Of a DNA stretch of 64,000 nt, positions 19,213 through 44,336 are shown in pieces (position 1 is the first letter of the stretch; every line of letters starts with the position of its first letter). The position numbers and the translations under genes were made by a program. The notes below the pieces were generated by a model. It ran no database searches, was not told the origin of the DNA, and saw nothing but the letters and a program-made list of their open reading frames with translations. Source of the DNA: Pseudomonadota bacterium (lineage in GTDB: Bacteria; Pseudomonadota; Alphaproteobacteria; JBCCHK01); the NCBI GenBank assembly GCA_039028835.1, contig JBCCHK010000008.1, forward strand, positions 6,698 to 70,697. Direction: 5' to 3'.

Positions 19213-19354
19213 GCTCAAGGGAATCATACCAGGAAAACGTCCCCGCGCATCCCCAAACGAGAAACCAGCGTCATAGTCGTGACGCAGTTATCCCAAATGT
19301 TTGCTTTGGCCCTACCCCTGGAAGGCCCCTTCACCGCACGATACCATAAGGCGT

Positions 19355-20623
19355 ATGAAAGATAAGCGTGAACAAGGATTTGGCTCTGTTGACCCCATCG
19401 AGGATGACTTTGACCTCTTTGGTGAGGAAACGGTGGCCATCAGCGGGTCCGTGCCGCGAGAGGAGCAGGCGGGCAAGTCTTCTAAGCGAGGGTTGTTCTT
19501 AGCCCTCGGCGGCGTCGTGCTGGGAGTGTTGATCCTGGGAGGTGGGTTTTTTGCCTATCAGCAGCTGAGTGCGCGCTGGGCACTCCAGGCTGAACTCCAG
19601 GCTATTGCTGAGCAAGCTGCCACAGGTGGGGGCACGACAGTTGTGTCTCAAGCAGACACCCAAGCGCAAGGCGGTCAGGACGCGGGACAAACTGGACAAG
19701 CCGTGCAAGATGGCTCTTCCTTGCGCGCCATCGTTGAGGCCCCTCCCGCGCAATGGGACGCGCCAGGAGAAAGCCAAAGCGGGGAAGTGGTTGCGGCGGT
19801 GTCCAGCCAGCCTCAGGTGACTGTAACCGGTCAAGGCGAGGTCTCCTCGGCTGTGATTACGGTGACCAACCAGCGGGATAACGACCGGGAGACCCGGCTC
19901 CGACAAGCGGCGGACACCGGCGAGCCAGAGGCCATGTTTGCGCTGGCGCAATACTATGACCAGGCGGCGCGCCCGGACTATGCCCGCGCCGCCCAATGGT
20001 ATCGCCGCGCGGGCGAGGCGGGGATCCCGGCGGCGGATTACCGTTTGGGGGAGATGCTACGGGAAGGGCGCGGGGTGGCGCGCAGTGATTCCGATGCTTT
20101 TGATGCGTTCTTGCGCGCCGGTCAGAGCGGCCACGATCAAGCGCAACTGGAGGTCGGGCGTGCCTATCGTCGCGGCTTCGGGGTGGATGCGGATCCGGTT
20201 CTGGCCGCGAACTGGTTTCAAATCGCACTGGGCAACGGCATGACCGATGCAGCGTTAGAGCTTGGCAAACTGTTTGAGGAAGGAGTCGGCGAGGGGGCGG
20301 ACTATGATGCAGCCTTGGGCTGGTACCAGTACGCCGCCCGTAGCGGCGTGATCGGTGCCCAGGCCGAGGCGGACCGGCTGGTGGCCCAGCAAGGTGCTCT
20401 GCCCCGCGAGGCCGAGCGTCCCCTCTCGGCGCAGGAGATTGCCGAGGTGCAGGCATTGCTCAATCAGCTGGGCTTTACGGCCGGCCCTGCCGATGGCCAG
20501 CCTGGCCCGCGTACCCGCCAGGCGATCAACGCCTTTAGTCAATCGCGCGGGGACGCGACCCAGGTGATCGACCGGAGCCTGTTGCGGAGTCTGCGCGCGG
20601 CGGCGCGCGAGGCAGCTTCCTAG
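19355..20623 (+). CDS. Membrane-anchored Sel1-repeat protein with a C-terminal peptidoglycan-binding domain.
   Basis: One TM helix is 'GLFLALGGVVLGVLILGGGFFAY'. There are repeated Sel1 units ('AAQWYRRAGEAG', 'ANWFQIALGNG', 'GWYQYAARSG') and a C-terminal PG_binding_1-like segment 'LNQLGFTAGPADGQPGPRTRQAINAFS'. Confidence 0.6.
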   Translation: MKDKREQGFGSVDPIEDDFDLFGEETVAISGSVPREEQAGKSSKRGLFLALGGVVLGVLILGGGFFAYQQLSARWALQAELQAIAEQAATGGGTTVVSQADTQAQGGQDAGQTGQAVQDGSSLRAIVEAPPAQWDAPGESQSGEVVAAVSSQPQVTVTGQGEVSSAVITVTNQRDNDRETRLRQAADTGEPEAMFALAQYYDQAARPDYARAAQWYRRAGEAGIPAADYRLGEMLREGRGVARSDSDAFDAFLRAGQSGHDQAQLEVGRAYRRGFGVDADPVLAANWFQIALGNGMTDAALELGKLFEEGVGEGADYDAALGWYQYAARSGVIGAQAEADRLVAQQGALPREAERPLSAQEIAEVQALLNQLGFTAGPADGQPGPRTRQAINAFSQSRGDATQVIDRSLLRSLRAAAREAAS

Positions 20624-20698
20624 CCTTAGTCCTGATCTCGCCCTTGATCTCGCCTCCTCCCTGAGCGGGTTCTCGATCCCCTTAATCTTCTTGATCCT

Positions 20699-20803
20699 CT
20701 TGATGAACTGGGGGACTATGGGGCGCGTGGGCCTGTAGTTCAGCGGTAGAACCCGCCGCTCATAACGGTGTTGTCGCAGGTTCGAATCCTGCCGGGCCCA
20801 CCA
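20699..20803 (+). repeat. Left copy of an ~105-bp imperfect direct repeat (tRNA-Met plus ~30 bp of leader). It brackets the nar island.
   Basis: 'tcttgatgaactgggggactatggggcgcgtgg...ttcgaatcctgccgggccc' is ~88% identical to the segment at 32710-32814. Confidence 0.7.
20729..20803 (+). tRNA. tRNA-Met (anticodon CAT), elongator type.
   Basis: A manually folded cloverleaf fits: acceptor GGGCCTG/CGGGCCC, U8A9, D-arm GTTC-AGCGGTA-GAAC, anticodon loop CTCATAA, T-arm GCAGG-TTCGAAT-CCTGC, discriminator A and encoded CCA. The paired 1:72 position argues against an initiator. Confidence 0.8.
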
Positions 20804-20822
20804 TGAAGCTTTTCAAAGAAGG

Positions 20823-20852
20823 TTTGTGCCTTAAAGTCCGCCATTCTCTGGC
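20823..20852 (+). terminator. Rho-independent terminator downstream of tRNA-Met.
   Basis: The hairpin CCGCCAttctcTGGCGG is followed by GGCTGTTTT. Confidence 0.5.
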
Positions 20853-21208
20853 GGGGCTGTTTTGTCGTTGACGGGTTTGCCCGGCAGAATCTAGCTATTT
20901 CTACGAATTTCATGATGATCTGGTGCCCATGCCGTTAAACGGCCCTCCCGCCAGGTTTATTCCTTTGCTGAAGTTGCGGCATTCATGGGGTGGCAGGTTG
21001 AGCGGATCATGATCTGCTGTCTGCGGTTTTAGCGTTATTGCACCTTTGTATGATCGGCGGATTGTGCAAGGAATAGAAAAGATATGATTTGAATAGTTTG
21101 TCGTAATTTTTATCGTATGTACAACGATACACGGTGTTGCCTAATCGATTATTATTTTATTGATATTTCTCCGTTCGTCTTTTCTATCTGCTCTATGTAT
21201 GCTGATTT

Positions 21209-22015
21209 TTAATAACGGATGCCTGCATGCGTAGGGCAGTGCGGGCAATCTTCCTTTGTTGCCAGGGTGCATTCATGCGCCGTATCCAAGTCGCAGAAAT
21301 GACAGAGCGCATAAGCGTCTTTCAAGCGAATTTTTTCACCTTTAATATCAATCCCCATTTTCTTGATTTGCGAAAGTGCACGGGAAAACGTTTCCGGGGT
21401 CATGCCCAGGTGATTGGCAATCGTTGATTTCTTAAATGGTAGCTCAAACTCCATGGTGTCTGAGTTTTGGGTGTCTGAGTTTTGGGTGTCTGAGTTTTGT
21501 TCCATGTGCTTTTGCAAGAAATAATATCCCACCCGTTGAACCGGTGATTTGATGGCCATGGCATCGATTTGGTGCATCGCGGTTTTATAGTGGTGTGTCA
21601 CAATTTTGAGCAGATTAGTCGCGAATTGATGATCTTGCAAAACGAATCTTTTAATAAACCCTCCTGGAATGAGCATGAGCTGGGCATCATCAACGACCTG
21701 AACCGCAATGGGTGACGGGCCACGCATAAAGAGCACAGCTTCCATACAAACCTCTCCTTGTCCAAGCATACGTATGGTGGCCTCACCACCATCTCTATTG
21801 GCTCTCAGCGTTCTTAACCGCCCTTCAACAATAAAATAGACATGCGTGGGTTGATCGCCTTGTTGTACGAGAAGGTGTCCGGCTTTGTAGTCCTGAAGGG
21901 TAGAGCTTTCCAGTATCTGCTGCAGAGCTTTCTCACTCAATCCTGTGAACAATTGAGGCTTTTTGCTGAGCTCAGCAAAGTTCCGAGGTTTCGCTATCGT
22001 GCTGTTTTTAATCAT
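21209..22015 (-). CDS. Crp/Fnr-family transcriptional regulator with a C-terminal cysteine cluster (NarR/Fnr-like).
   Basis: A cNMP-binding β-roll ('YFIVEGRLRT', 'GQGEVCMEAV') and an HTH ('KSTIANHLGMTPETFSRALSQ') are present. There are no N-terminal Cys residues. The C-terminal tail 'CHFCDLDTAHECTLATKEDCPHCP' has five Cys. A QNSDT tandem repeat sits in the linker. Confidence 0.75.
   Translation of the reverse strand: MIKNSTIAKPRNFAELSKKPQLFTGLSEKALQQILESSTLQDYKAGHLLVQQGDQPTHVYFIVEGRLRTLRANRDGGEATIRMLGQGEVCMEAVLFMRGPSPIAVQVVDDAQLMLIPGGFIKRFVLQDHQFATNLLKIVTHHYKTAMHQIDAMAIKSPVQRVGYYFLQKHMEQNSDTQNSDTQNSDTMEFELPFKKSTIANHLGMTPETFSRALSQIKKMGIDIKGEKIRLKDAYALCHFCDLDTAHECTLATKEDCPHCPTHAGIRY
21456..21500 (-). 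repeat. Perfect 15-bp tandem repeat ×3 (gtgtctgagttttgg) inside the Crp/Fnr gene. It encodes (QNSDT)3 in frame.
   Basis: Read directly: units at 21456-21470, 21471-21485 and 21486-21500, the last with one mismatch. Confidence 0.9.
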
Positions 22016-22063
22016 AGTTTATTGATTGCGCCACAAAAAAGATTCTTCTTAATTTGCATCAAC

Positions 22064-22077
22064 TTGATTTGAATCAA
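22064..22077. promoter_or_regulatory. Consensus FNR/Anr box TTGAT-N4-ATCAA in the divergent fnr-like/narK promoter.
   Basis: 'TTGATTTGAATCAA' is an exact match to the E. coli FNR consensus half-sites. It lies ~95 bp upstream of the narK start codon. Confidence 0.6.
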
Positions 22078-22145
22078 TTTCAACGTGCTCCAATCATGCC
22101 AAAAAACCTGTAATGATCAAGAAATAAGACGTATTTACAGGTCTT

Positions 22146-25094
22146 ATGCAAACAGGAGAGAGCAATGCCATGGTCACAAAGTCAGAACAAACACGGGCTC
22201 TGAGTTTAAGCACCTTTGCCTTTACCGCATGTTTTGCTGTTTGGACTATTTTTTCCATTATCGGCATTCAGATTAAGAGCGATTTGGGCCTCAATGATAC
22301 GCAGTTTGGCCTATTAGTCGCGACCCCGGTTCTCACGGGATCTTTAAGCCGTCTGCTTTTAGGGATTTGGGCAGACCAGTATGGCGGGCGCATTGTTTTT
22401 ACGCTGACAATGCTTGCCTCAGCATTATCGACGTGGCTTTTGTCCTCTGCCAACACTTACGAGATATTCTTGGTTGGCGCTTTGGGCGTTGGTTTGGCTG
22501 GCGGCGGGTTTGCCGTCGGCGTGGCCTATGTATCGCAATGGTATACGAAGGAAAAGCAAGGCACGGCCCTGGGGATTTTTGGTGTTGGTAATGTCGGGGC
22601 AGCCTTTACTAATTTTGGCGCGCCGTTTTTGTTAATCGCTTTAGGATGGGAAGGTACGGCCAGAGTCTACGCCATCATGCTTGCGATTGTTGCTCTCTTT
22701 TTCTTTGTCCTTACCAAGGATGATCCCAAGCTGGCGGTGCGCAAGAAAAATAAAGAAAAACCGCGCTCTGTTCTAGCGCAAATGGAGCCTTTGAAAAAAC
22801 TACAGGTCTGGCGGTTCTCGCTCTATTACTTTTTTGTTTTCGGGGCTTTTGTAGCGTTAGCGTTGTGGTTGCCGCGCTATTATGTCGGTGTTTATGGTCT
22901 GGATATTAAAATGGCCGGTATGTTGGCAGCCGCTTATGCGTTGCCGGGTTCGATTTTCCGAGCTCTGGGTGGATGGATGTCGGATCGCTACGGTGCACGG
23001 GCGGTCATGTATTGGACATTTATAGCTTGTGTGTTGGTTTGTTTTTTTCTTTCTTATCCCTATACGACCTATATCGTGCAAGGAGTTGAAGGGCCGATCC
23101 AGTTTGAGTTTGGCGTCAATCTGCCGACCTTTGTCGCGCTGACGGTTATTCTTGGTTTCTTTATGTCCTTGGGTAAAGCTGCGGTTTATAAGCATATTCC
23201 GGTTTACTACCCAGAGCATGTGGGTGCTGTCGGCGGGGTTGTCGGTTTGGTTGGTGGCTTGGGTGGCTTCTTCTTGCCGATTGTCTTTGGCTTTATGAAT
23301 GATGTGATTGGTGTCTGGACGAGCTGTTTTATGATGCTCTTCGGTATTACGGCATTTGCCCTTTTGTGGATGCATGCATCGATCCTGTTTATGGAAGGCA
23401 CAATCGAGAAACCGAAGTTCTTGCCGGAGCTTAAACTTTCTAAAGCAAAAGAAATAGAAAGTGTTGACAAAGCCACTGAGTTTAAGAATCAAGGGCTGGA
23501 AGACTGGAACCCTGAAAATGAAGAACAGTGGGCGCGTTGGGGTAAGAATGTTGCGTATCGCAATCTCTGGATCTCTATTCCTTCGTTGCTGTGTGGTTTT
23601 GCGGTCTGGCTTTATTGGGGCATCATCACGGTACAGATGCTTAATCTGGGTTTCCCGTTTGCCAAGGCCGATCTCTTCTCACTGATGGCAATCGCGGGCC
23701 TTTCAGGCGCGACATTACGTATCCCTTCGACCTTCTTTATTCGATTGGCGGGCGGGCGCAATACAATTTTTATGACGACGGCGCTATTGATTGTGCCAGC
23801 ACTGGGCGCGGGAATTGCGTTACAAGATCCAAACACACCGCTTTGGATATTCCAGGTATTAGCGCTGCTTTCTGGATTTGGCGGTGGTAACTTTGCATCT
23901 TCTATGTCCAATATCAGCTTTTTCTTTCCGAAGAAAAAGCAAGGTTTGGCATTAGGTCTCAATGCAGGCTTGGGCAACTTTGGTGTCACCACGATGCAGA
24001 TTTTGATCCCGTTGGTGATGACATTCGGTGTTTTTGGTGGCGCACCGATGGTGCTAGAAAGTACAAGCGGTACGCTAATTGGCAAGATTTCTGCCGGCAC
24101 CGATACTTATATTCACAATGCCGGTTTTGTTTGGTTGGTTTTCTTGATCCCCCTTTCTATCGCGGCATGGCTTGGGATGGATAATATCAAGGCCAAACAC
24201 GTGTCGCCGGGACTGGGCGCGCCGCCAATGGCATTTTTCCAGATTGGTGTCATGTTGCTCATCGGCTTAGGTGTTGGCGCCGCCGGGTTGTGGTTAATGT
24301 TGCCAGAAAGTGCCAATGGCTCTGGTTTTGATGTGAGCAAATATATTGTTCTGCCCTTGGTAATTGCCGCGACCGTGATGATACTCAAGATGTTACCAGG
24401 TGACATTGGTAGCAGCCTGAAACGTCAGTATCAAATTTTTAAGCATCCGCATACATGGGTGATGACCGTAATCTATACCATGACTTTCGGTTCCTTCATC
24501 GGGTTTGCTGCATCCTTTCCATTGGCGATCAAAGTGGTGTTTGGTTTCCAGCATGTTGCTGGCCCGGATGGCGTTGTAACCCATGATCTGGCTAACCCAA
24601 ACGGACCAAGTGCTTTGATGTTTGCCTGGATGGGGCCATTTATCGGCGCGTTGATTCGTCCTGTGGGTGGCTGGATTTCTGATCGGATGGGTGGGGCCCT
24701 GGTAACGCAGCTTTGCTCGATCGTGATGGTCGGTTCTACGCTGGGTGCTGCGTATTACATGAAACTTGCTTACGCTTCCGCCACGCCGGAAATCTATTTT
24801 TTGCCGTTCTTGGTGTTATTCCTTTTGCTTTTCACAGCAACCGGGATTGGCAACGGGTCCACGTTTCGCACCATCGCAATCGTGTTTAACAAGGAGCAGA
24901 CTGGCCCGGTACTTGGCTGGACCTCTGCGGTGGCTGCTTATGGTGCCTTCATTATTCCAAAAGTGTTGGGTGAGCAAATCAAGCTCACCACACCGGAAAT
25001 GGCGCTCTATGGCTTTGCAGCTTTCTATGCTCTTTGCGTGATTTTGAATTGGTTTGTTTATCTGCGCCCTGGTGCGAAACACAAAAACCCTTAA
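22146..25094 (+). CDS. narK: Fused two-domain nitrate/nitrite transporter NarK1-NarK2 (tandem MFS).
   Basis: It is 982 aa with about 24 TM segments in two MFS halves. An RBS-supported start is likely at 22170 (aggaga-N9-ATG). It lies immediately upstream of narG. Confidence 0.8.
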   Translation: MQTGESNAMVTKSEQTRALSLSTFAFTACFAVWTIFSIIGIQIKSDLGLNDTQFGLLVATPVLTGSLSRLLLGIWADQYGGRIVFTLTMLASALSTWLLSSANTYEIFLVGALGVGLAGGGFAVGVAYVSQWYTKEKQGTALGIFGVGNVGAAFTNFGAPFLLIALGWEGTARVYAIMLAIVALFFFVLTKDDPKLAVRKKNKEKPRSVLAQMEPLKKLQVWRFSLYYFFVFGAFVALALWLPRYYVGVYGLDIKMAGMLAAAYALPGSIFRALGGWMSDRYGARAVMYWTFIACVLVCFFLSYPYTTYIVQGVEGPIQFEFGVNLPTFVALTVILGFFMSLGKAAVYKHIPVYYPEHVGAVGGVVGLVGGLGGFFLPIVFGFMNDVIGVWTSCFMMLFGITAFALLWMHASILFMEGTIEKPKFLPELKLSKAKEIESVDKATEFKNQGLEDWNPENEEQWARWGKNVAYRNLWISIPSLLCGFAVWLYWGIITVQMLNLGFPFAKADLFSLMAIAGLSGATLRIPSTFFIRLAGGRNTIFMTTALLIVPALGAGIALQDPNTPLWIFQVLALLSGFGGGNFASSMSNISFFFPKKKQGLALGLNAGLGNFGVTTMQILIPLVMTFGVFGGAPMVLESTSGTLIGKISAGTDTYIHNAGFVWLVFLIPLSIAAWLGMDNIKAKHVSPGLGAPPMAFFQIGVMLLIGLGVGAAGLWLMLPESANGSGFDVSKYIVLPLVIAATVMILKMLPGDIGSSLKRQYQIFKHPHTWVMTVIYTMTFGSFIGFAASFPLAIKVVFGFQHVAGPDGVVTHDLANPNGPSALMFAWMGPFIGALIRPVGGWISDRMGGALVTQLCSIVMVGSTLGAAYYMKLAYASATPEIYFLPFLVLFLLLFTATGIGNGSTFRTIAIVFNKEQTGPVLGWTSAVAAYGAFIIPKVLGEQIKLTTPEMALYGFAAFYALCVILNWFVYLRPGAKHKNP

Positions 25095-25108
25095 GAGGAT
25101 ATAAAAAG

Positions 25109-28100
25109 ATGAGCTATTTCATCGACCGTATTTCATACTTTGCTCAAAGCCGTGAAAAGTTTTCTGATGGCCATGGCGTCACCACACAAGAAAACCGAGT
25201 TTGGGAAGAGGCGTACCGTGGTCGCTGGGCGCATGACAAAATTGTGCGCTCTACCCATGGCGTGAACTGTACAGGCTCTTGCTCTTGGAAAATCTATGTC
25301 AAAAACGGATTAATTACGTGGGAAACGCAGCAAACAGATTATCCGCGAACACGTCCCGGTTTGCCAAACCATGAGCCACGGGGCTGTTCACGTGGGGCAA
25401 GCTATAGTTGGTATATCTATGCTGCTAATCGCCTGAAATATCCGTTGATCCGCAAGCGTCTTTTGAAGATGTGGCGGCGCATGAAAGCGCAGCATGGCGA
25501 TCCTGTAGAGACATGGAAAGCCATTCAAGCCGATCCGATTTTGCGCACTGAATATCAAAAACTTCGTGGGCGGGGCGGATTTGTTCGTGCTGAGTGGGAT
25601 GAGGTGAACGAAATCATTGCAGCGTCCAACATTCACACAATTAAGGAGCATGGGCCGGATCGTGTTATCGGATTTTCCCCCATTCCGGCCATGTCGATGG
25701 TGTCGTATGCGGCTGGCTCGCGCTACCTTTCGTTGATTGGTGGTGTATGTATGAGTTTTTATGACTGGTACTGCGATTTGCCGCCAGCCTCGCCGATGAC
25801 ATGGGGTGAACAAACCGACGTTCCGGAAAGCGCAGATTGGTATAACTCAGGCTTTATTATGATGTGGGGCTCTAACGTTCCGCAAACAAGAACGCCTGAT
25901 GCACACTTTATGACTGAGGCGCGCTATAAGGGGACGCAAGTGGTCACAATCACGCCGGATTATTCGGAAGCCTCTAAGTTTGGCGATATCTGGCTCAACC
26001 CGAAACAGGGTACGGATGCGGCCGTTGGCATGGCGATGGGGCATGTGATTCTCAAAGAGTTCCACCTTGAAAATACGTCTGAATATTTTGACGACTATAC
26101 CCGTCAATACTCCGATTTCCCCTTCCTTGTGAAACTAGAGAAACGCGACGGGCGTTATGTGCCGGGTCGTATGGTGCGCGCTTCTGATTTTGAGGGCGCT
26201 TTGGGGCAAAAAAACAACCCTCAATGGAAAACGGTTTGCCTGGATGAAAAAACAGGCACTCTCGTTGTTCCCACCGGTTCCATCGGTTTTCGCTGGGGTG
26301 AAGATGAGAAGAAAACCGGGCAATGGAACATTGCGCCCCTCGATTCCAAAACCAAGAAAGAGATTCGTCCGCAAAAGACTTTGCTCGGCTCTCATGATGA
26401 AGTTCTCACTGTGGGCTTCCCATACTTTGCCAACGCTGAGCATGAGCATGGTTATTTTGCAGGTAATCAACAAGATGAGATTTTAGATCGTCATCTGCCC
26501 GTCAAGTATCTGGAGATTAATGGCGAGAATGTACCAGTTGTGACGGTCTTTGATCTGGTTTGTGCGAATTACGGTATCGCTCGTGAGGGGCTTGGTGGCG
26601 ATAATGTGGCCTCACGCTACGATGAGAACGTGCCGTATACGCCGAAATGGCAGGAACGGATCACCGGTGTTCCCGCGGATAACATTACCTACGTCGCGCG
26701 TGCCTTTGCTGATAATGCGGATAAGACCAAAGGTAAATCGATGATTATCATCGGCGCGGCGATGAATCACTGGTATCACATGGATATGAATTATCGAGCA
26801 TGCATCAACATGCTCGTATTCTGTGGCTGTGTTGGTCAATCGGGCGGTGGTTGGTCGCATTACGTAGGGCAGGAAAAACTGCGACCACAGACCGGATGGC
26901 TGCCGCTTGCGTTCGCGCTGGACTGGAACCGTCCACCGCGCCAGCAAAACTCAACCTCGTTCTTTTATGCGCATACAGATCAGTGGCGTTATGAAACGTT
27001 GGGCGTGGATGAGATTTTGTCGCCGACAGCAGACAGATCGCGCTGGCAAGGTTCGCTGATTGATTGCAATATCCGCGCCGAGCGTATGGGTTGGTTGCCC
27101 TCCGCACCACAGCTGGAGGAAAACCCGATTGGGCTTGTCAAGAAGGCTGGCAAGAAAAATCCAGTCGAGTATGTCACAGAGCGTCTCTCCCGTGGCGATT
27201 TGCGCATGTCCTGCGAGGATCCAGATCATCCAGCAAACTGGCCGCGTAATTTATTTGTCTGGCGTTCGAACCTCTTGGGTTCTTCGGGTAAAGGGCATGA
27301 GTATTTCCTCAAGCATTTTCTAGGGACACAGCACGGTGTGCAGGGCAAGGACCTCGGTGAAGAAGGAAAAAGCGCGTCCAGGGATGTCGTCTGGCATGAT
27401 AAAGCGCCGGAGGGAAAACTTGATCTGGTGGTCACCCTCGACTTTCGGATGTCTACGACATGTATGTATTCTGATATCGTTCTACCGACGGCGAGTTGGT
27501 ATGAGAAGAATGATCTCAATACCTCGGACATGCACCCTTTTATTCACCCGCTGTCTAAGGCCATTGACCCAGTATGGCAGAGCCGCAGTGACTGGGATAT
27601 TTACAAAGGATTAGCAAAGAAGTTCTCCGAGCTTGCACCAGGTCATCTGGGGATCGAAAAAGAAATCGTCCTCACGCCCATCCAGCATGATACACCGGGC
27701 GAACTTGCGCAAAACGATGTGAAAGAGTGGCGTAAAGGGCAGTGCGATCTTGTGCCCGGCGTAACCGCGCCTGCCATGAAAGTGGTGGAGCGAGATTATC
27801 CGGCAACGTATGAGCGTTTTACCTCTCTTGGCCCGCTCATGGAAACGTTGGGTAATGGCGGTAAGGGCATTGGTTGGAATACCAGCCAGGAGGTGGCTTT
27901 CCTGAAAGCTCTGAATGGTGAAAATAGACAAAATTGCGCAAACATCCAAAGTGATATTGATGCTTGCGAAACGGTGATGACCTTAGCGCCGGAAACCAAT
28001 GGTGATGTGGCTGTCAAGGCGTGGGAGGCTTTGGGTAAAATTACGGGCCGTGACCATACCCATTTGGCGCTGCCGAAAAAAGAAGAAAAAATCCGCTTCC

Positions 28101-28849
28101 ACGACATTCAGGCGCAACCGCGTAAAATTATCTCATCACCCACATGGAGTGGGCTGGAATCCGAGCACGTTTGTTATAATGCAGGTTATACCAACGTGCA
28201 CGAATATATCCCTTGGCGCACACTGACCGGGCGACAACAGCTTTACCAGGATCACCCGTGGATGCTGGATTTTGGCGAGGGACTGGTTTCCTATAAACCG
28301 CCGATCAATACGGCAACGATCCACACCATGCTCGAAAAGCATGGTGGTGAGGATACCCCGCATGTGACGCTCAACTTTATTACACCGCACCAGAAATGGG
28401 GTATTCACTCGACCTATTCTGACAATTTACACATGCTCACGCTTTCCCGTGGCGGGCCAATTGTTTGGATGAGTGAAAACGATGCTAAAAAAGTAGCGAT
28501 CAAAGATAATGACTGGGTTGAAGTCTTCAATACCAATGGGGCCATTACCGCGCGGGCAGTGGTATCTCAACGTGTCAATGACGGGATGCTGCTCATGTAT
28601 CACGCACAGGAAAAAATCGTCAATACACCGGGCAGTAAAATCACCAACGCCCGTGGCGGCATTCATAACTCTGTGACACGGGCAACGGTTAAGCCGACTC
28701 ATATGATCGGGGCGTATGCACAACAATCATACGGCTTTAACTATTATGGCACAGTGGGATCAAACCGTGATGAGTTCGTGATTGTACGCAAGATTGAAGA
28801 TCAGGATATCGACTGGATGGAAGAACCATTAAAGGCGGTAGAACAATGA
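25109..28849 (+). CDS. narG: Respiratory nitrate reductase alpha subunit.
   Basis: The N-terminal FeS0 motif 'HGVNCTGSCSWKIY' (H-x3-C-x3-C) is present, and the ~1246-aa size fits. The start was moved to 'MSYFIDR' with the RBS aagagga. Confidence 0.9.
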   Translation: MSYFIDRISYFAQSREKFSDGHGVTTQENRVWEEAYRGRWAHDKIVRSTHGVNCTGSCSWKIYVKNGLITWETQQTDYPRTRPGLPNHEPRGCSRGASYSWYIYAANRLKYPLIRKRLLKMWRRMKAQHGDPVETWKAIQADPILRTEYQKLRGRGGFVRAEWDEVNEIIAASNIHTIKEHGPDRVIGFSPIPAMSMVSYAAGSRYLSLIGGVCMSFYDWYCDLPPASPMTWGEQTDVPESADWYNSGFIMMWGSNVPQTRTPDAHFMTEARYKGTQVVTITPDYSEASKFGDIWLNPKQGTDAAVGMAMGHVILKEFHLENTSEYFDDYTRQYSDFPFLVKLEKRDGRYVPGRMVRASDFEGALGQKNNPQWKTVCLDEKTGTLVVPTGSIGFRWGEDEKKTGQWNIAPLDSKTKKEIRPQKTLLGSHDEVLTVGFPYFANAEHEHGYFAGNQQDEILDRHLPVKYLEINGENVPVVTVFDLVCANYGIAREGLGGDNVASRYDENVPYTPKWQERITGVPADNITYVARAFADNADKTKGKSMIIIGAAMNHWYHMDMNYRACINMLVFCGCVGQSGGGWSHYVGQEKLRPQTGWLPLAFALDWNRPPRQQNSTSFFYAHTDQWRYETLGVDEILSPTADRSRWQGSLIDCNIRAERMGWLPSAPQLEENPIGLVKKAGKKNPVEYVTERLSRGDLRMSCEDPDHPANWPRNLFVWRSNLLGSSGKGHEYFLKHFLGTQHGVQGKDLGEEGKSASRDVVWHDKAPEGKLDLVVTLDFRMSTTCMYSDIVLPTASWYEKNDLNTSDMHPFIHPLSKAIDPVWQSRSDWDIYKGLAKKFSELAPGHLGIEKEIVLTPIQHDTPGELAQNDVKEWRKGQCDLVPGVTAPAMKVVERDYPATYERFTSLGPLMETLGNGGKGIGWNTSQEVAFLKALNGENRQNCANIQSDIDACETVMTLAPETNGDVAVKAWEALGKITGRDHTHLALPKKEEKIRFHDIQAQPRKIISSPTWSGLESEHVCYNAGYTNVHEYIPWRTLTGRQQLYQDHPWMLDFGEGLVSYKPPINTATIHTMLEKHGGEDTPHVTLNFITPHQKWGIHSTYSDNLHMLTLSRGGPIVWMSENDAKKVAIKDNDWVEVFNTNGAITARAVVSQRVNDGMLLMYHAQEKIVNTPGSKITNARGGIHNSVTRATVKPTHMIGAYAQQSYGFNYYGTVGSNRDEFVIVRKIEDQDIDWMEEPLKAVEQ

Positions 28850-30453
28850 AAATACGTGCGCAAATAGGCATGGTGCTTAATCTCGATAAATGTATTGGGT
28901 GTCACACCTGCTCAGTCACTTGTAAGAATGTCTGGACGTCTCGCGAGGGCATGGAATATGCCTGGTTCAATAATGTTGAAACCAAGCCTGGTGTTGGCTT
29001 TCCTAAGCAATGGGAGAATCAGGAACAATGGCATGGCGGGTGGCACCGCACAAAGAGTGGAAAAATCCATCCCAAACAAGGGGGACGCTGGCGCATTTTG
29101 GCGAAGATTTTTGGCAATCCAGATATGCCAGAAATTGATGATTATTACGAGCCGTTTACTTTCGATTATGACCATCTTCAAAACGCCCCTGAGTCAAAAA
29201 ATATGCCAACGGCACGGCCACGATCCTTAGTGTCCGGGCAGCGCATGGAGAAGATTGAATGGGGGCCAAATTGGGAGGAAATTTTAGGCACTGAGTTTGA
29301 ACACCGGCGCAAGGATTATAATTTTAAGAATATGGAAGAGCAGATGTATGGAGAGTTTGAAAACACCTTCATGATGTATCTTCCGCGCTTGTGTGAACAT
29401 TGTCTGAATCCAACCTGTGTGGCGTCCTGTCCATCGGGCTCTATTTATAAACGTGAAGAAGATGGTGTGGTTCTGGTCGATCAGGATAAATGTCGCGGCT
29501 GGCGCATGTGCGTATCGGGCTGTCCGTATAAGAAGATTTATTATAACTGGAAATCCGGTAAGGCAGAAAAGTGCACGTTATGCTATCCGCGTCTTGAAAA
29601 CGGAGAGCCAACGGTATGTTCAGAGACCTGTGTCGGGCGCATTCGATATCTGGGTGTGATTTTATACGATGCAGACCGTATCGAGCAGGCCGCAAGCGTT
29701 GCCAATGAGGAGGATCTTTATCAGGCACAGTGCAACATCTTCCTTGATCCCCATGATGCAAAGGTCATAGCCCAGGCACGAAAAGACGGCATTCCTGGGA
29801 ACTGGATTGAGGGGGCGCAAACCTCACCAGTGTACAAAATGGCGATAGACTGGAAAGTAGCCTTCCCGTTGCATCCTGAATATAGAACTTTACCGATGGT
29901 TTGGTATGTTCCGCCGCTGTCTCCCGTGCAAAATGCAATCCAAACAGGAAAACTACCGACAAAAGGCATTTTGCCTGATGTGGATAAAATGCGCATTCCG
30001 GTGAAATATTTGGCCAATATGCTCACCGGCGGCAAGGAAGAACCGGTTGTTTTGGCTCTTAAACGCTTGATGGCGATGCGTCATTTTATGCGAGGCGAGT
30101 TGACCCAGGGCAAGGCCGATCCGAAGGTATTACAAGAGGTCGGCCTTACTGCGTCTTTGGTGAAGGATATGTACAAAACGATGGCACTTGCTAACTATGA
30201 AGATCGCTACGTGATACCGACCGGTCACCGTGAGGAAACGCTGGATGCTTACGGCGAAAGCGGTGCTTGCGGCTTTAGCTTCGGCAATGGTTGTGCTTTG
30301 CATTCCCATAGTGATGTTGATCTCTTTGAAAATCCAATGAACTGGCGCGGTCGTAGTGCTTCTGGCAAAGACAACCGTGTGAATACATTGTTCACCCAAG
30401 GAAAAACAAGCACATCAGGCGGCTGCGGTAGCGGCGGCTGTGGTTGTAATTAG
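28846..30453 (+). CDS. narH: Respiratory nitrate reductase beta subunit.
   Basis: The N-terminus 'MKIRAQIGMVLNLDKCIGCHTCSVTCKNVW' is near-identical to the enterobacterial NarH start. Multiple Cys ferredoxin clusters are present. There is an unusual Cys/Gly-rich C-terminal extension. Confidence 0.9.
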   Translation: MKIRAQIGMVLNLDKCIGCHTCSVTCKNVWTSREGMEYAWFNNVETKPGVGFPKQWENQEQWHGGWHRTKSGKIHPKQGGRWRILAKIFGNPDMPEIDDYYEPFTFDYDHLQNAPESKNMPTARPRSLVSGQRMEKIEWGPNWEEILGTEFEHRRKDYNFKNMEEQMYGEFENTFMMYLPRLCEHCLNPTCVASCPSGSIYKREEDGVVLVDQDKCRGWRMCVSGCPYKKIYYNWKSGKAEKCTLCYPRLENGEPTVCSETCVGRIRYLGVILYDADRIEQAASVANEEDLYQAQCNIFLDPHDAKVIAQARKDGIPGNWIEGAQTSPVYKMAIDWKVAFPLHPEYRTLPMVWYVPPLSPVQNAIQTGKLPTKGILPDVDKMRIPVKYLANMLTGGKEEPVVLALKRLMAMRHFMRGELTQGKADPKVLQEVGLTASLVKDMYKTMALANYEDRYVIPTGHREETLDAYGESGACGFSFGNGCALHSHSDVDLFENPMNWRGRSASGKDNRVNTLFTQGKTSTSGGCGSGGCGCN

Positions 30454-30464
30454 GGAATAGGACA

Positions 30465-31172
30465 ATGAAGACATTAAAAGTTTTGGGCGTTCTGCTGACG
30501 TATCCCTCGGCCGATTTGATGAAAGCTTTACCGGAGTTGCAGAAAATCCTGAAAAAAGAAAAATGGTTGTCAGAAAAATCGTTAAAAACGCTTGGCCATT
30601 TGATGGATTGGATGAGTGCGCAGGACTTGCTAGATTTACAAGAAGAGTTTGTTGCGCTGTTTGATCGTACGCCGTCGCTTTGTTTACATTTGTTTGAGCA
30701 TGTCCATGGCGACTCGCGTGATCGCGGGCAGGCTCTGGCTGATCTCTCAGAGATTTATAAAGACGCAGGTCTGCTTATTAATACTGAAGAAATGCCTGAT
30801 TTTCTGCCGCTGTTTTTAGAGTATCTTTCTGTGATTGATGCGCAAGAGTCACGCCAGAACTTGGGAGAGATTGCCAATGTTCTGGGTGTTTTAGCCAGGC
30901 GTTTGAACAGTAGGCGCTCACCTTATGCTTGTGTGTTTGAAGGGCTCATTGAGGCGGCGGCCCGTAAGCCTGATAAAAAGGCTGTTGAAGCGGCCCTTAA
31001 AGATGCGACCGGTAAGGCAGGGACGTTTGAGGAGCTGGATCAATCATGGGAAGAGCAGAACGCTTTCGAGAACTCCTTACAAACCATAGAGCAGAATATG
31101 AGCGGCGGTTGTCCAAAGGCCGAGGCCATGTTGGCGCAGATGAACCTACCAAAAGAAAACGAGGAGGTATAG
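30465..31172 (+). CDS. narJ: Nitrate reductase molybdenum cofactor assembly chaperone.
   Basis: Its position between narH and narI, its size and the TorD-like N-terminus support the call. Confidence 0.8.
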   Translation: MKTLKVLGVLLTYPSADLMKALPELQKILKKEKWLSEKSLKTLGHLMDWMSAQDLLDLQEEFVALFDRTPSLCLHLFEHVHGDSRDRGQALADLSEIYKDAGLLINTEEMPDFLPLFLEYLSVIDAQESRQNLGEIANVLGVLARRLNSRRSPYACVFEGLIEAAARKPDKKAVEAALKDATGKAGTFEELDQSWEEQNAFENSLQTIEQNMSGGCPKAEAMLAQMNLPKENEEV

Positions 31173-31176
31173 AGCT

Positions 31177-31851
31177 GTGGATTTCTTTTTATTTCAGATT
31201 TTCCCTTATATTGCGATCGCTGTTTTTGCGTTGGGGAGCATTCTGCGGTTTGACCGTGATCCTTATTCGTGGCGCTCAAAATCTAGCCAGCTTCTAAGAC
31301 GAAAACAATTCATTGTTGGTAGTATTCTGTTTCATTGCGGGATTATCACGATTTTGCTCGGGCATATTGTGGGGCTACTAACCCCGATTGCGGTGTTTGA
31401 TGCTGTGGGCATTTCCCATGGTGTAAAGCAGATTTTGGCGATGACGGCTGGCGGGATTGCGGGAGTATTTTGCTTTATCGGGCTGGTTATGTTGCTTCAT
31501 CGTCGTTTGGTTGATCCGCGTATTCGTGCGACCAGTTCTTTTTCGGATATTGCTGTATTGGTTTTGCTTTTGGCGCAGCTTTGTCTGGGGATGTATACGA
31601 TTACGGAATCGATGAAGCATTTAGACGGGCATGAAATGGTTAAGTTCATGGAATGGGCCCAGCATATCGCAACACTCCGTGGTGGGGCTCATCATTATGT
31701 TTCTGATGTGGCGTGGGTATTCAAAGTGCACCTGGTGCTGGGGATGTTTATTCTCTTTGTCTGGCCCTTCACAAGGCTTGTACATGTGTTCAGTGCACCG
31801 GTCGGATTTGTGTTCCGGCCTTATCAAATTGTTCGTAAAAGGGAGATTTAG
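31177..31851 (+). CDS. narI: Respiratory nitrate reductase gamma subunit (cytochrome b).
   Basis: It is 224 aa with five TM helices carrying the conserved His ligands. Confidence 0.85.
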   Translation: MDFFLFQIFPYIAIAVFALGSILRFDRDPYSWRSKSSQLLRRKQFIVGSILFHCGIITILLGHIVGLLTPIAVFDAVGISHGVKQILAMTAGGIAGVFCFIGLVMLLHRRLVDPRIRATSSFSDIAVLVLLLAQLCLGMYTITESMKHLDGHEMVKFMEWAQHIATLRGGAHHYVSDVAWVFKVHLVLGMFILFVWPFTRLVHVFSAPVGFVFRPYQIVRKREI

Positions 31852-31854
31852 GAG

Positions 31855-32616
31855 ATGGTTGCTGCGCCCAGTATTAGCGTAAATGGTATCAAAATTACAC
31901 CTCAGCAAATTAATGCGGAGGCGCAATATCATCCGGCTGAAAGTTTTTTTAGTGCCCAATATGAAGCCACGCAGGCTTTGGTCGTACGGGAGCTTTTAAT
32001 CCAGCGGGCGGTTGATTTGGGGCTTTGTCAACACGACGCAGGGATCAAAAATCCGGATGACGTTTTGGTAGCATTGTTTGAAAAAGAAATAGTGCTTCCT
32101 GAAGCAGATGAGCAAACATGCCGGCGTTTTTATGAGCAGAATAAAAAGCGATTTTTTACTGCACCCTTATTCGAAGCAGCGCACATCTTATACCCAGCCC
32201 CGCCGGGGGATAAGCAGGCCCGCGACGCTGCCTTAGAAAAAGCACAAAAAGCGTTGGTGCGGATTATGCAAAAGCCAGAGTGTTTTAAGACAATTGCGAG
32301 AACAGAGTCGGCGTGTTCATCTGCCAAAATGGGCGGGCATCTTGGGCAGATCACCAAAGGGCAGACGGCGCCCGCTTTCGAGGCAGCATTGCTTGATATG
32401 CAAGAGGGGGATCTTTCCGAACAGCCCCTAGCCAGTGAGTTTGGCTATCATTTGATTAAGGTTCATAAACGTCTTGAAGGCAAACAATTGCCTTTTGGTG
32501 CCGTGCATGAATGGATTGTCGATTATCTGCAGCAGCAAAGCTGGCAGAGGGCTTTTCGTCAGTATGTTCAGCTTTTGGCAGGACAGGCCAAGGTAAGCGG
32601 ATTCCAGCCAGGCTGA
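31855..32616 (+). CDS. PpiC-type (parvulin) peptidyl-prolyl cis-trans isomerase, nar-associated.
   Basis: A parvulin domain ('SAKMGGHLGQITKGQTAPAFEAA', 'FGYHLIKV') is present. From memory, this is the same position as the PpiC-type gene after narI in Pseudomonas nar clusters. Confidence 0.65.
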   Translation: MVAAPSISVNGIKITPQQINAEAQYHPAESFFSAQYEATQALVVRELLIQRAVDLGLCQHDAGIKNPDDVLVALFEKEIVLPEADEQTCRRFYEQNKKRFFTAPLFEAAHILYPAPPGDKQARDAALEKAQKALVRIMQKPECFKTIARTESACSSAKMGGHLGQITKGQTAPAFEAALLDMQEGDLSEQPLASEFGYHLIKVHKRLEGKQLPFGAVHEWIVDYLQQQSWQRAFRQYVQLLAGQAKVSGFQPG

Positions 32617-32709
32617 CAGTCCGCTTGTACAGTAATACTTGCACGATGTGATCGCCGCTTTTTGAGCAGGGTTTCCTACGTGGGGATTTTCTGGCCTTGT
32701 ACCTGATTC

Positions 32710-32814
32710 TCTTAATGAACAGGGGAACGATGGGGCGCGTGGCCTTGTGGTTCAGCGGTAGACCCCGCCGCTCATAACGGTGTTGTCGTAGGTTCGAATC
32801 CTGCCGGGCCACCC
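32710..32814 (+). repeat. Right copy of the ~105-bp direct repeat (tRNA-Met-like plus leader) bracketing the nar island.
   Basis: It aligns to 20699-20803. Confidence 0.7.
32741..32814 (+). tRNA. tRNA-Met(CAT)-like sequence, probably a degenerate copy or pseudo-tRNA.
   Basis: It is ~90% identical to the tRNA at 20729-20803 and has the same CAT anticodon loop. However, the acceptor stem (GGCCTTG vs CGGGCCA) has a G1:A72 and a C3:C70 mismatch, the D-stem has a mismatch, and there is no encoded CCA. Confidence 0.45.
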
Positions 32815-33109
32815 GTGTGCTACCACCCGCAAAAAATCACAAAAAATCATAAAAAAAGACGCAAAAACGGCCAAAATCCCGCAAATACTGTGAATGGCGC
32901 GTTGGTAGGGGCGCGGGTCGGTGTATACTGGCACCGGAAGGTCCTTATGGTCGTTTTTTCTCGAAAAGCCTTCACAAAAACCGTTCAAGAAAAAATGGCG
33001 ATAACGACGGAGAATCAGCCGATAATCCGATCCTCATGCGGCTTGACCTTCCTCGCCGCGCACCTCGCCCTTGCTTCATCCCAAAACGATGCGGGTTTCC
33101 TGCCCATGA

Positions 33110-42539: not shown

Positions 42540-43397
42540 ATGAGTACACAAATCAACAAATGGTTCATCGAAGAGTTTCAAACAGATGTCCATGCCGCTT
42601 ATCAACAGCAAGGGGCGCGTCTGCGTCATACCGTGAGAACAAAAAATAATGTCCGCGGCGAAAAAACACACTTCAACACAGCAGGTATCGTCGGTGTTGG
42701 CGATAAAGCACGCGGCGGTAACGTCCCCATTATCACCGGCGGCCGAGGCCGAGTCGAGTGCACCCTGATTTCAAAATATGGCGGCGACTATGTGGAAGAT
42801 ATCGATGAGCTGAAAACCAATATCGATGAAAAACAAGTCATCGCCATGTCTTTTGCTTGGGCGCATGGTCGCCATACGGACAATTTGATTATCGAGGCGA
42901 TCACCCAAGACACCAATACGCACCGGGTCAACGATGCAAACATCGCCACAGGCCTTAAGTCTGCCCATGTTCAAGAGGCGCTGGAAAAACTCAACCAAGC
43001 TGATGTGCCGGATGACGGCGCGCGCACGGCACTTGTCACGCCCCATGCGTGGGAAGAGCTTTTGGCTATCGATGCCTTTGCCAAGGCGGATTATATCGGC
43101 AAGGAGTCCTTGCCGTGGCTTGGTGGCTCGGAAGCCAAACGGTGGCGCAACTGTCTGTGGATGATGCATACCGGTTTGCCGATCAATACGGAAAACAAAG
43201 TCGCAAGCTGTGTGATTTTTCACAAAACTGCGGTCGGTCATGCGATTGGCAAGGAACTGGAAGCACAATGGTCTTGGGAAAATACAAAATCCGCATGGTT
43301 TTTGAATACCCGCATGTTGCAAGGGGCCTGTCTGATCGATCCTAAAGGTGTGGTGAAGATCCATGTCAAAAACAATCAACCCATCAGCACCTCATAA
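42540..43397 (+). CDS. Phage major capsid protein (T7 gp10-like).
   Basis: The C-terminal blocks 'VIFHKTAVGHAIGKEL' and 'MLQGACLIDPKGVVKIHV' parallel T7 gp10 'LFMHRSAVGTVKLRDL' and 'AMGHGGLRPEAAGAVVFKV', as recalled from memory. Confidence 0.6.
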   Translation: MSTQINKWFIEEFQTDVHAAYQQQGARLRHTVRTKNNVRGEKTHFNTAGIVGVGDKARGGNVPIITGGRGRVECTLISKYGGDYVEDIDELKTNIDEKQVIAMSFAWAHGRHTDNLIIEAITQDTNTHRVNDANIATGLKSAHVQEALEKLNQADVPDDGARTALVTPHAWEELLAIDAFAKADYIGKESLPWLGGSEAKRWRNCLWMMHTGLPINTENKVASCVIFHKTAVGHAIGKELEAQWSWENTKSAWFLNTRMLQGACLIDPKGVVKIHVKNNQPISTS

Positions 43398-43421
43398 CGA
43401 TCTATAGAAAGGACCTAATCA

Positions 43422-44331: not shown

Positions 44332-44336
44332 CCATC

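What the first reader, a model, noticed from the sequence alone, without database searches (positions are those of the whole stretch)
21209..22015. nar-linked Crp/Fnr regulator with a C-terminal Cys cluster instead of the proteobacterial N-terminal FNR cluster
The regulator divergent from narK has the cNMP-binding β-roll and HTH of FNR-family proteins. It lacks the N-terminal Cys-x2-Cys-x5-Cys of E. coli FNR. It also differs from the Cys-free NarR/NnrR/Dnr of alphaproteobacteria. Instead its tail 'CHFCDLDTAHECTLATKEDCPHCP' has five Cys (CxxC-x7-C-x7-CxxC). A C-terminal [4Fe-4S] ligation is known from Bacillus subtilis Fnr but is unusual in Proteobacteria. This may represent a distinct O2- or NO-sensing architecture in a NarR position.
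Basis: partly seen in the sequence, partly recalled or inferred. Interest (0 to 1): 0.6.

Follow-up and report, generated by a model that had tools for sequence, protein, structure and literature searches.

The report
Cysteine-tailed Fnr-type regulator of nitrate reductase
The gene next to this bacterium's nitrate-respiration operon encodes a switch protein of the well-known Crp/Fnr type that ends in a strictly conserved cysteine tail; the tail defines a large, apparently unstudied family in uncultured Alphaproteobacteria and probably holds a metal or iron-sulfur sensor at an unusual place in the protein.

Summary
ORF 21209-22015 (-) encodes a 268-aa Crp/Fnr regulator. It has no N-terminal Cys cluster, and its tail reads C238-x2-C241-x7-C249-x7-C257-x2-C260. 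It lies divergent from a fused narK followed by narGHJI and a PPIase.

The tail is not chance. In 120 homologues (at least 53% identity) these Cys are kept in 119-120 sequences. In about 50 species-level MAG loci the gene sits in the same position. 47 of 50 regulator-narK spacers carry one perfect FNR box (TTGAT-N4-ATCAA).

The family-wide core is four Cys (C-x2-C-x7-C-x7-C). C260, C90 and H239 are additions of this clade. Over 100 relatives carry the same module fused to an N-terminal NIT (nitrate/nitrite-sensing) domain, and those I checked are also nar-linked. One relative sits beside nosRZD.

Cultured bacteria (Paracoccus, Tistrella) have the same cassette, but their NarR-position regulator has no such Cys tail and is only 20-26% identical.

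Most likely this is a nar activator gated by a tail-bound Fe-S cluster, working like Bacillus Fnr but with a different motif. A Zn(Cys)4 site is a serious rival. No cofactor was shown. I rate it a new variant of a known kind, of moderate to high interest.

The parts
21209..22015 (-). Crp/Fnr-family regulator, 268 aa (identical to a deposited MAG protein, 'Pseudomonadota bacterium')
   Evidence: fold matches Crp/Fnr structures
21635..21895 (-). cNMP-binding-like beta-roll sensor domain (aa 41-127); contains clade-conserved C90 in 'GEVCMEAV'
   Evidence: C90 in 118/120 of the clade but hydrophobic in the wider family; AF2 pLDDT >90
21299..21535 (-). Crp-type winged HTH (aa 161-239) with FNR-type recognition helix P207-E-T-F-S-R212
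   Evidence: E208, S211 and R212 invariant or near-invariant
21227..21304 (-). C-terminal Cys tail, aa 238-263: C238-H-F-C241-D-x-D-x-A-x2-C249-x7-C257-x2-C260-P-x-H263
   Evidence: four-Cys core with fixed 7/7 spacing in 95 of 114 motif-bearing cluster representatives; AF2 pLDDT 85 for aa 231-250 and 66-69 for aa 251-268
21455..21499 (-). perfect 15-bp x3 in-frame tandem repeat (QNSDT x3), a 10-aa insertion relative to 258-aa homologues, in a surface loop of the DNA-binding domain
   Evidence: alignment gap in all homologues; lowest-confidence loop of the DNA-binding domain in both models (178-184 <50; blocks 171-190 at 75 and 66)
22064..22077 (.). perfect FNR/Anr box TTGATTTGAATCAA; centre is 95.5 bp upstream of the probable narK ATG (22166) and 55.5 bp upstream of the regulator ATG
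   Evidence: the only perfect box in the 64-kb window; conserved in 47/50 related spacers; median 99.5 bp from narK ATG
22049..22062 (.). second, 1-mismatch box TTAATTTGCATCAA, produced by a 15-bp tandem duplication of the box region (22048-22077)
   Evidence: related loci have a single box
22146..25094 (+). fused NarK-NarK nitrate/nitrite transporter (982-aa ORF; the start is more likely ATG 22166, preceded by AGGAGA)
25034..28849 (+). narG (ORF as listed; the HMM match begins at residue 27, so the true start is probably near 25112)
   Evidence: TIGR01580, 2099 bits
28846..30453 (+). narH
30465..31172 (+). narJ
31177..31851 (+). narI
31855..32616 (+). PPIC-type peptidyl-prolyl isomerase, last gene of the cassette (as in Paracoccus and Tistrella)
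20692..20805 (+). left copy of a 114-nt direct repeat containing tRNA-Met(CAT) 20729-20803; left border of the low-GC nar island
32704..32817 (+). right copy (89% identical) containing tRNA-Met(CAT) 32740-32814; right border of the island

Best explanation
The ORF encodes a member of an apparently uncharacterised Crp/Fnr subfamily. The subfamily is defined by a C-terminal extension directly after the winged HTH, with the core C-x2-C-x7-C-x7-C; this clade adds C260, H239, H263 and C90. The proposed mechanism has three steps. (1) The protein acts as a homodimeric activator that binds the conserved TTGAT-N4-ATCAA box about 95-100 bp upstream of narK through its FNR-type E--SR recognition helix. 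In this way it switches on narK-narGHJI, and in relatives probably also neighbouring anaerobic operons. (2) Each monomer's four core Cys ligate one O2- or NO-labile Fe-S cluster, most simply [4Fe-4S], next to the DNA-binding domain. (3) Cluster integrity sets the DNA-binding or activation competence of that domain, as in Bacillus subtilis Fnr. It does not act through the N-terminal, dimerisation-controlling cluster of E. coli FNR. What is shown: domain architecture, Cys conservation, synteny, box conservation, recognition-helix conservation, NIT fusions. What is inferred: DNA binding at that box, any metal at all, Fe-S rather than Zn, O2/NO as the signal, activation rather than repression.
For: Cys conservation: C241, C249 and C257 in 120/120, C238 and C260 in 119/120. 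The four-Cys core with exact 7/7 spacing occurs in 95 of 114 motif-bearing 50%-identity representatives and in 109/109 NIT fusions. Synteny: divergent from narK-narGHJI in essentially every related locus that has upstream flank, about 50 species-level MAGs. Target site: exactly one perfect FNR box in 47/50 spacers, with 1 mismatch in the other 3, at a constrained distance from narK. It is the only perfect box in the 64-kb window. Recognition helix E208/S211/R212 is invariant or near-invariant. Relatives sit among other O2-independent functions (moeA, ubiT/U/V, nrdD/G), each preceded by a perfect box. A 38%-identical four-Cys member sits next to nosR-nosZ-nosD. NIT-domain fusions supply a separate nitrate sensor on the same polypeptide, which implies the Crp/Cys4 module contributes something other than nitrate sensing. 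Precedent: Bacillus Fnr holds an O2-labile [4Fe-4S] on a C-terminal Cys extension (PMC3520743; PMC12937710). AF2 with a diverse MSA (pTM 0.83) models aa 231-250 at pLDDT 85, so the tail is not simply disordered. One CxxC plus two single Cys is not the paired-knuckle pattern usual for zinc ribbons (own knowledge).
Against: No cofactor can be shown in silico. Within this clade the pattern CxxC...CxxC-P-x-H also fits a zinc site. The only hit of a tail profile to a solved structure is a zinc B-box knuckle, and it is not significant (E=1.3). Paracoccus and Tistrella have the same FNR box at the same place, and Paracoccus co-regulates nar with FnrP (an FNR orthologue) and NarR (PMC4771820). So the box here could belong to a separate canonical FNR that I could not look for in these MAGs. 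No sigma70-like promoter was found, so the box's register relative to a transcription start is unknown.
Confidence: 0.5

Rival explanations
1. The tail is a Zn(Cys)4 site, either purely structural or a thiol/zinc redox switch. The regulator plays the NarR role (nitrate/nitrite-dependent co-activator), while a separate canonical FNR-type protein encoded elsewhere in the genome senses O2 and uses the FNR box.
For: The clade pattern C-x2-C ... C-x2-C-P-x-H resembles paired zinc knuckles. The tail profile's only PDB hit is the MID1 B-box1 zinc finger 'LCQFCDQDPA' (E=1.3). The cassette and box position match Paracoccus and Tistrella, and Paracoccus co-regulates nar with FnrP and NarR (PMC4771820). 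The closest curated family is FtrB, and S. granuli 'ftrB' is described as NarR-like.
Against: The second CxxC is not conserved outside this clade; the universal set is one CxxC plus two single Cys. In the NIT fusions nitrate sensing is already provided by NIT. The NarR-position proteins of cultured species do without any such Cys tail. The PDB hit is not significant.
Confidence: 0.3
2. The tail binds an Fe-S cluster, but the physiological signal is NO or nitrosative stress arising from nitrate/nitrite reduction rather than O2, as in NsrR or Wbl-type sensing.
For: The family is linked to N-oxide respiration only: nar and nosRZD. One NIT-fusion locus includes ScdA/hemerythrin Fe-S repair genes preceded by a box. 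Fe-S regulators commonly react with NO; FnrP does (PMC4771820).
Against: Boxes also precede nrdDG and ubiTUV, functions needed for anoxia in general rather than for NO stress. Nothing in the sequence discriminates NO from O2.
Confidence: 0.15
3. The Cys-rich tail is a chance or lineage-specific, functionally irrelevant, disordered extension.
For: The first AF2 model gave pLDDT 57-66 for the tail.
Against: Cys conservation is near-absolute over 120 homologues and over more than 100 relatives at 27-38% identity, with fixed spacing. The second model gave pLDDT 85 for aa 231-250.
Confidence: 0.02

Closest known systems
Bacillus subtilis / B. cereus Fnr (C-terminal [4Fe-4S] Crp/Fnr regulators)
   Same: Crp/Fnr fold. 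No N-terminal cluster. A Cys-rich extension directly after the DNA-binding domain. Genetically tied to narK/narGHJI. Expected to work without relying on an N-terminal dimerisation switch.
   Different: The motif differs. Bacillus has four Cys with three acting as ligands (C-x2-C-x4-C) plus Asp141 (PMC3520743). Here there are four to five Cys spaced 2/7/7/2, so no non-Cys ligand is needed. The phylum differs (Alphaproteobacteria MAGs versus Firmicutes). No biochemical data exist here.
Paracoccus NarR and NarR-position regulators (P. aminovorans JCM7685_RS18360, Tistrella mobilis TMO_RS23000)
   Same: Identical cassette: regulator divergent from fused narK, then narGHJI and a PPIase. A perfect FNR box lies about 85-95 bp upstream of narK. 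E--SR recognition helix.
   Different: Only 20% and 26% identity. Neither has the Cys-rich tail: Paracoccus has none and Tistrella has a single Cys. NarR is described as a nitrate/nitrite-responsive, cluster-free regulator (PMC4771820).
E. coli FNR / FnrP / FnrN / ANR
   Same: Superfamily, E--SR helix, TTGAT-N4-ATCAA target type, control of anaerobic respiration.
   Different: The N-terminal C-x2-C-x5-C plus central Cys is absent. NCBIfam Fnr scores 32 bits against a cut-off of 228, and FnrL 41 against 300.
FtrB (NCBIfam PRK09392) and Ruegeria pomeroyi SPOA0323 (PDB 3fx3/3h3z)
   Same: Best curated-family and best solved-structure matches (117 bits; E 1.7e-20).
   Different: Below the family cut-off (211 bits). 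24-26% identity. The solved protein has no Cys tail (alignment).
NIT-domain one-component regulators (e.g. NasR-type NIT-ANTAR)
   Same: Relatives of this protein carry an N-terminal NIT nitrate/nitrite-sensing domain.
   Different: The output here is a Crp/Fnr HTH with a Cys4 tail. I found no paper describing this fusion. The window protein itself lacks NIT.

Membership tests
Crp/Fnr superfamily | N-terminal cNMP-binding-like beta-roll, long dimerisation helix, C-terminal Crp-type winged HTH | tested here: met
   Pfam PF00027 and PF13545 above cut-offs. AF2 model pTM 0.83 with helix 129-155. Foldseek top hits are all Crp/Fnr structures.
FNR proper (E. coli FNR, FnrP, FnrN, ANR) | N-terminal Cys cluster (C-x2-C-x5-C) plus a central Cys ligating [4Fe-4S] | tested here: not met
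   No Cys before residue 90. 0/120 homologues have 3 or more Cys in the first 35 aa. NCBIfam Fnr and FnrL score far below cut-off.
FNR proper (E. coli FNR, FnrP, FnrN, ANR) | E--SR recognition helix and a TTGAT-N4-ATCAA target | tested here: met
   P-E-T-F-S-R is invariant or near-invariant. A perfect box is present in the window and in 47/50 related spacers. Actual binding is not testable here.
Bacillus-type Fnr | C-terminal extension bearing the cluster ligands | tested here: met
   The Cys tail starts 1-2 residues after the last element of the HTH domain.
Bacillus-type Fnr | Ligand set C-x2-C-x4-C plus Asp141 | tested here: not met
   Spacing here is 2/7/7(/2) with four invariant Cys. Bacillus motif taken from PMC3520743.
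Bacillus-type Fnr | Binds an O2-labile [4Fe-4S] cluster required for DNA binding | not testable with these tools
   Needs anaerobic biochemistry.
NarR (Paracoccus) | Encoded divergently from narK-narGHJI | tested here: met
   same cassette in P. aminovorans and T. mobilis.
NarR (Paracoccus) | Sequence orthology to NarR; no Cys cluster | tested here: not met
   20% identity to the P. aminovorans NarR-position protein and 26% to Tistrella's. Both lack the tail.
NarR (Paracoccus) | Activity responds to nitrate/nitrite | not testable with these tools
   The NIT fusions suggest nitrate sensing is supplied separately in relatives.
FtrB (NCBIfam PRK09392 / NF050815) | Score at or above the curated cut-off | tested here: not met
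   117.4 bits against 211; 75.2 against 300.
Dnr/NnrR haem-based NO sensors | Haem binding in the sensor domain; control of nir/nor | not testable with these tools
   DNR (3dkw) is a distant hit, E 6e-16. No nir or nor genes lie near any locus examined.
B-box / zinc-ribbon zinc fingers | Significant similarity to a zinc-finger profile or structure; two paired knuckles conserved | tested here: not met
   The only PDB hit has E=1.3. The second CxxC is conserved only within this clade.

The most novel reading that the evidence does not exclude
The Cys4 tail defines a new class of proteobacterial Fe-S oxygen (or NO) sensor carried on the DNA-binding domain of Crp/Fnr regulators and dedicated to denitrification modules. 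Its NIT-fused members would then be single-polypeptide AND-gates that integrate nitrate (NIT domain) and anoxia (Fe-S tail), jobs that E. coli splits between NarXL and FNR and that Paracoccus splits between NarR and FnrP. The window protein would be the NIT-less form, travelling with a horizontally acquired 12-kb nar island as its self-contained oxygen switch.
Probability: 0.35. Interest if true: 0.75.

Novelty: new variant of a known kind. Interest (0 to 1): 0.62.

Why it matters
Control of respiratory nitrate reduction by oxygen is textbook biology. It rests on two sensor designs: the N-terminal cluster of proteobacterial FNR and the C-terminal cluster of Bacillus Fnr. A third, sequence-distinct Cys4 design would broaden that picture. 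It is conserved across dozens of uncultured alphaproteobacterial species, including Micavibrio-like lineages usually regarded as aerobic predators, and it is always tied to nar (once to nos). It would also give a compact, transferable regulator-plus-operon module for nitrate respiration. The NIT fusions offer a directly testable case of nitrate and redox signals being combined in one transcription factor. If the tail binds zinc instead, the family is still a clean, unstudied NarR analogue that marks nar islands in metagenomes.

Tried and rejected
- Tail-only profile (A3) against all PDB sequences gave a single non-significant hit, so no solved analogue of the motif was found.
- Foldseek against the PDB gave only generic Crp/Fnr folds, none with a Cys tail.
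- The afdb50 library, which might have named cultured carriers, was unavailable.
- tblastn against 72,556 plasmids found nothing above 28% identity to the regulator, so no cultured close relative was found there.
- The sigma70 promoter and terminator scan of the spacer found nothing, so I could not fix the box at -41.5.
- I tested whether tRNA genes flank the nar cassette in relatives. They do not, in any of 35 loci, so the tRNA-Met bracket is specific to this genome.
- Key primary papers were not in the held library: Gruner 2011 on Asp141 and Wood 2001 on NarR. Their content is cited only through papers that were held.
- Seven literature searches found no description of this family or of NIT-Crp fusions.
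- I rejected filing the protein as FNR, NarR, FtrB or Bacillus-type Fnr, because a defining feature failed in each case.
- Caveat: the broad-family Cys percentages come from sequences pre-selected for the motif. The unbiased figures are 114 of the top 150 representatives and the unselected sets.

Full report
**1. What is there**

The minus-strand ORF 21209-22015 encodes 268 aa. Pfam finds a cNMP-binding-type beta-roll (aa 41-127) and a Crp-type HTH (aa 161-239).

No curated NCBIfam model reaches its cut-off. The best is FtrB at 117 bits against 211. Fnr, FnrL, FixK and CRP score 30-46 bits. The best solved relatives are Ruegeria pomeroyi SPOA0323 (3fx3/3h3z, E 1.7e-20, no Cys tail) and P. aeruginosa DNR.

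There is no Cys in the first 89 residues.

Across a 130-bp spacer lie a fused NarK-NarK transporter, then narG, narH, narJ, narI and a PPIC isomerase. The protein is 100% identical to a deposited MAG protein labelled 'Pseudomonadota bacterium'.

**2. The tail is conserved, not chance**

A search of 5.8 billion proteins gave 264 hits at E < 1e-5. In the best 120 (53-89% identical), conservation is as follows:

- C241, C249 and C257: 120/120
- C238 and C260: 119/120
- F240 and D242: 119/120
- D244: 116/120
- H239: 108/120
- H263: 90/120
- C90, a sixth Cys in the beta-roll: 118/120

Cys make up 18% of tail residues against 0.75% elsewhere. No homologue has an FNR-like N-terminal Cys cluster.

**3. 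Wider family**

A profile search of 1.84 billion cluster representatives found 284 at E < 1e-30. Of the top 150, 114 end in C-x2-C-x(5-9)-C-x(4-11)-C, and 95 of those have exactly the 7/7 spacing.

In this wider set only four Cys (238, 241, 249, 257) are universal. Position 260 is usually Pro, Lys or Thr, position 90 is hydrophobic and position 239 is variable.

Forty-six of the top 150 representatives are 490-560 aa. All five full-length members tested carry a complete N-terminal NIT (nitrate/nitrite-sensing, PF08376) domain in front of the same Crp/Fnr-Cys4 module, and a shorter 415-aa one has a partial match. A dedicated search found more than 100 such fusions, and 109/109 have the motif.

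More distant alphaproteobacterial Crp/Fnr proteins (27-29% identity) have a different tail of the type C-x2-C-x5-7-C. More than one kind of C-terminal Cys tail therefore exists in Proteobacteria.

**4. Genomic context**

A scan of one genome per species returned 79 loci. All hits of at least 43% identity are MAGs labelled Alphaproteobacteria, Micavibrio, Pseudobdellovibrionaceae or Rhodospirillales. NCBI files Micavibrio under Bdellovibrionota.

Wherever upstream sequence exists, the regulator is divergent from narK-narGHJI, often with the PPIase as well. This holds in about 50 loci.

Downstream, relatives carry moeA, ubiT/ubiU/ubiV and nrdD/nrdG, which are all functions for anoxic life.

NIT fusions are also nar-linked. 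P0350 is divergent from narK-narK-narGHJI. P0282 sits among nar, Moco-biosynthesis and ubiTUV genes. P0149 is not nar-linked.

A 38%-identical four-Cys member in a Pseudomonadales MAG lies directly upstream of nosR-nosZ-nosD.

**5. Target site**

The window's only perfect TTGAT-N4-ATCAA is at 22064-22077, in the regulator-narK spacer.

In 50 related spacers, 47 have exactly one perfect box and 3 have a one-mismatch box. Where start codons could be assigned (23 loci), the box centre lies a median 99.5 bp (IQR 94-103) upstream of narK and 41.5 bp upstream of the regulator. The window values are 95.5 and 55.5 bp.

The recognition helix P-E-T-F-S-R keeps the FNR-type E--SR residues invariantly.

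In L087 perfect boxes also precede narG, ubiT, nrdD and a porin-like gene.

No sigma70-like promoter was detected. That fits an activator-dependent promoter, but it leaves the register unknown.

**6. Comparison with real NarR-position genes**

Paracoccus aminovorans plasmid IV and Tistrella mobilis pTM2 carry the same cassette: regulator <-> fused narK - narGHJI - PPIase. They have a perfect FNR box 86-92 bp upstream of narK.

Their regulators are 20% and 26% identical to the window protein. Both have E--SR helices and end without a Cys cluster.

So 'NarR position' is right, but the protein is not a NarR orthologue by similarity, and it differs exactly at the tail. Since Paracoccus co-regulates nar with FnrP (an FNR orthologue) and NarR (PMC4771820), the shared box also keeps open that a separate FNR acts here.

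**7. Structure**

AF2 with the 120 close homologues gave pLDDT 78 overall and 57-66 for the tail.

With a more diverse alignment (143 sequences including NIT fusions) it gave mean pLDDT 87.6 and pTM 0.83. Helices are predicted at 234-240, 243-248 and 250-253. pLDDT is 85 for aa 231-250 and 66-69 for aa 251-268.

The first three Cys therefore sit in a confidently placed element packed after the HTH, and the last two are less certain.

**8. Mechanism**

The most economical reading is an FNR-box-binding activator of nar whose activity is gated by a Cys4-ligated Fe-S cluster on the DNA-binding domain. It would work like Bacillus Fnr, where C-terminal Cys plus Asp141 hold an O2-labile [4Fe-4S] (PMC3520743). 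The ligand motif is different and the protein is not a member of that family.

The NIT fusions argue that the Crp/Cys4 module does not itself sense nitrate.

The main rival is a Zn(Cys)4 site, structural or redox-active, in a NarR-like co-activator. A weak and non-significant resemblance of the first knuckle to a B-box zinc finger and the clade's CxxC...CxxC-P-x-H pattern keep this alive.

I put Fe-S at about 0.5 for O2 sensing (plus about 0.15 for an NO-sensing variant), Zn at about 0.3, and an irrelevant tail at no more than 0.02.

**9. Novelty**

I found no paper on this family or on NIT-Crp fusions. A 2026 structural review still assigns C-terminal clusters to Gram-positive FNRs.

One paper mentions an 'ftrB' divergent from narU in Sphingopyxis granuli TFA, 'similar to NarR' (PMC7713065). 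Its sequence could not be checked, and it may be a cultured entry point.

My verdict is a new variant of a known kind.

Noticed in passing
window 20692-32817: The regulator-nar cassette is a low-GC island. GC is 0.45-0.52 inside against 0.55-0.63 in both flanks. It is bracketed by two same-strand tRNA-Met(CAT) genes that lie in a 114-nt direct repeat (89% identical, 12,012 bp apart). No integrase is visible inside. This looks like a horizontally acquired or recombination-inserted nar module carrying its own regulator.
   Followed up: partly
window 21455-21499: A perfect 15-bp x3 in-frame tandem repeat (GGTGTCTGAGTTTTG) inside the regulator gene encodes QNSDT x3. It adds 10 residues that are absent from all homologues, in a low-confidence surface loop of the DNA-binding domain. 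It is probably a recent slippage event.
   Followed up: partly
window 22048-22077: The FNR-box region is itself a 15-bp tandem duplication (86% identical). This gives a second, one-mismatch box next to the perfect one. Related loci have a single box, although Tistrella mobilis has two perfect boxes in its spacer.
   Followed up: partly
relatives P0142, P0146, P0157, P0161, P0173, P0271-P0379; loci L080, L084, L085: More than 100 proteins of about 510-530 aa fuse an N-terminal NIT nitrate/nitrite-sensing domain to the same Crp/Fnr-Cys4 module. They come from Sphingomonadales, Kordiimonadaceae, Emcibacteraceae and Rickettsiales-labelled MAGs, and two of the three whose context I examined lie in nar clusters. 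I found no literature on this architecture.
   Followed up: partly
L087 (boxes at 6898, 9943, 12056, 14661, 17605), L088, L086, L080: In relatives, perfect TTGAT-N4-ATCAA boxes precede narK, narG, ubiT-ubiU-ubiV (O2-independent ubiquinone synthesis), nrdD-nrdG and a porin-like gene. This is a compact FNR-box regulon for anoxic life clustered around the regulator.
   Followed up: partly
L055 9938-17037: A 38%-identical four-Cys-tail Crp/Fnr in a Pseudomonadales MAG sits directly upstream of nosR-nosZ-nosD. The family therefore extends from nitrate reductase to nitrous-oxide reductase clusters.
   Followed up: partly
L062, L064, L065, L076; P0203, P0224, P0233, P0239, P0244, P0257, P0262, P0263: More distant alphaproteobacterial Crp/Fnr proteins (27-29% identity) end in a different Cys tail (C-x2-C-x5-7-C..., for example YACQACSSFFPCKDDC). 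Its tighter, Bacillus-like spacing is closer to the Bacillus Fnr type. No nar genes lie within 10 kb of the four loci of this type that were scanned.
   Followed up: no
window 22146-22171: The narK ORF as listed starts at ATG 22146, but a good Shine-Dalgarno sequence (AGGAGA, 22154-22159) precedes ATG 22166. tblastn alignments in other loci begin at query residues 2-14, which fits the later start.
   Followed up: partly
window 42540-46067: Phage-like ORFs lie among housekeeping genes: Phage_capsid_2 at 2.5e-59 and a weak, sub-threshold nozzle-protein match (E 4e-4, 19 bits against a cut-off of 27). This may be a prophage remnant or a gene-transfer-agent-like cluster.
   Followed up: no
window 19301-20623: A Sel1-repeat plus peptidoglycan-binding-domain protein lies next to the left tRNA-Met. 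A similar Sel1/PG_binding gene also lies near the regulator in L088. Its significance is unknown.
   Followed up: no
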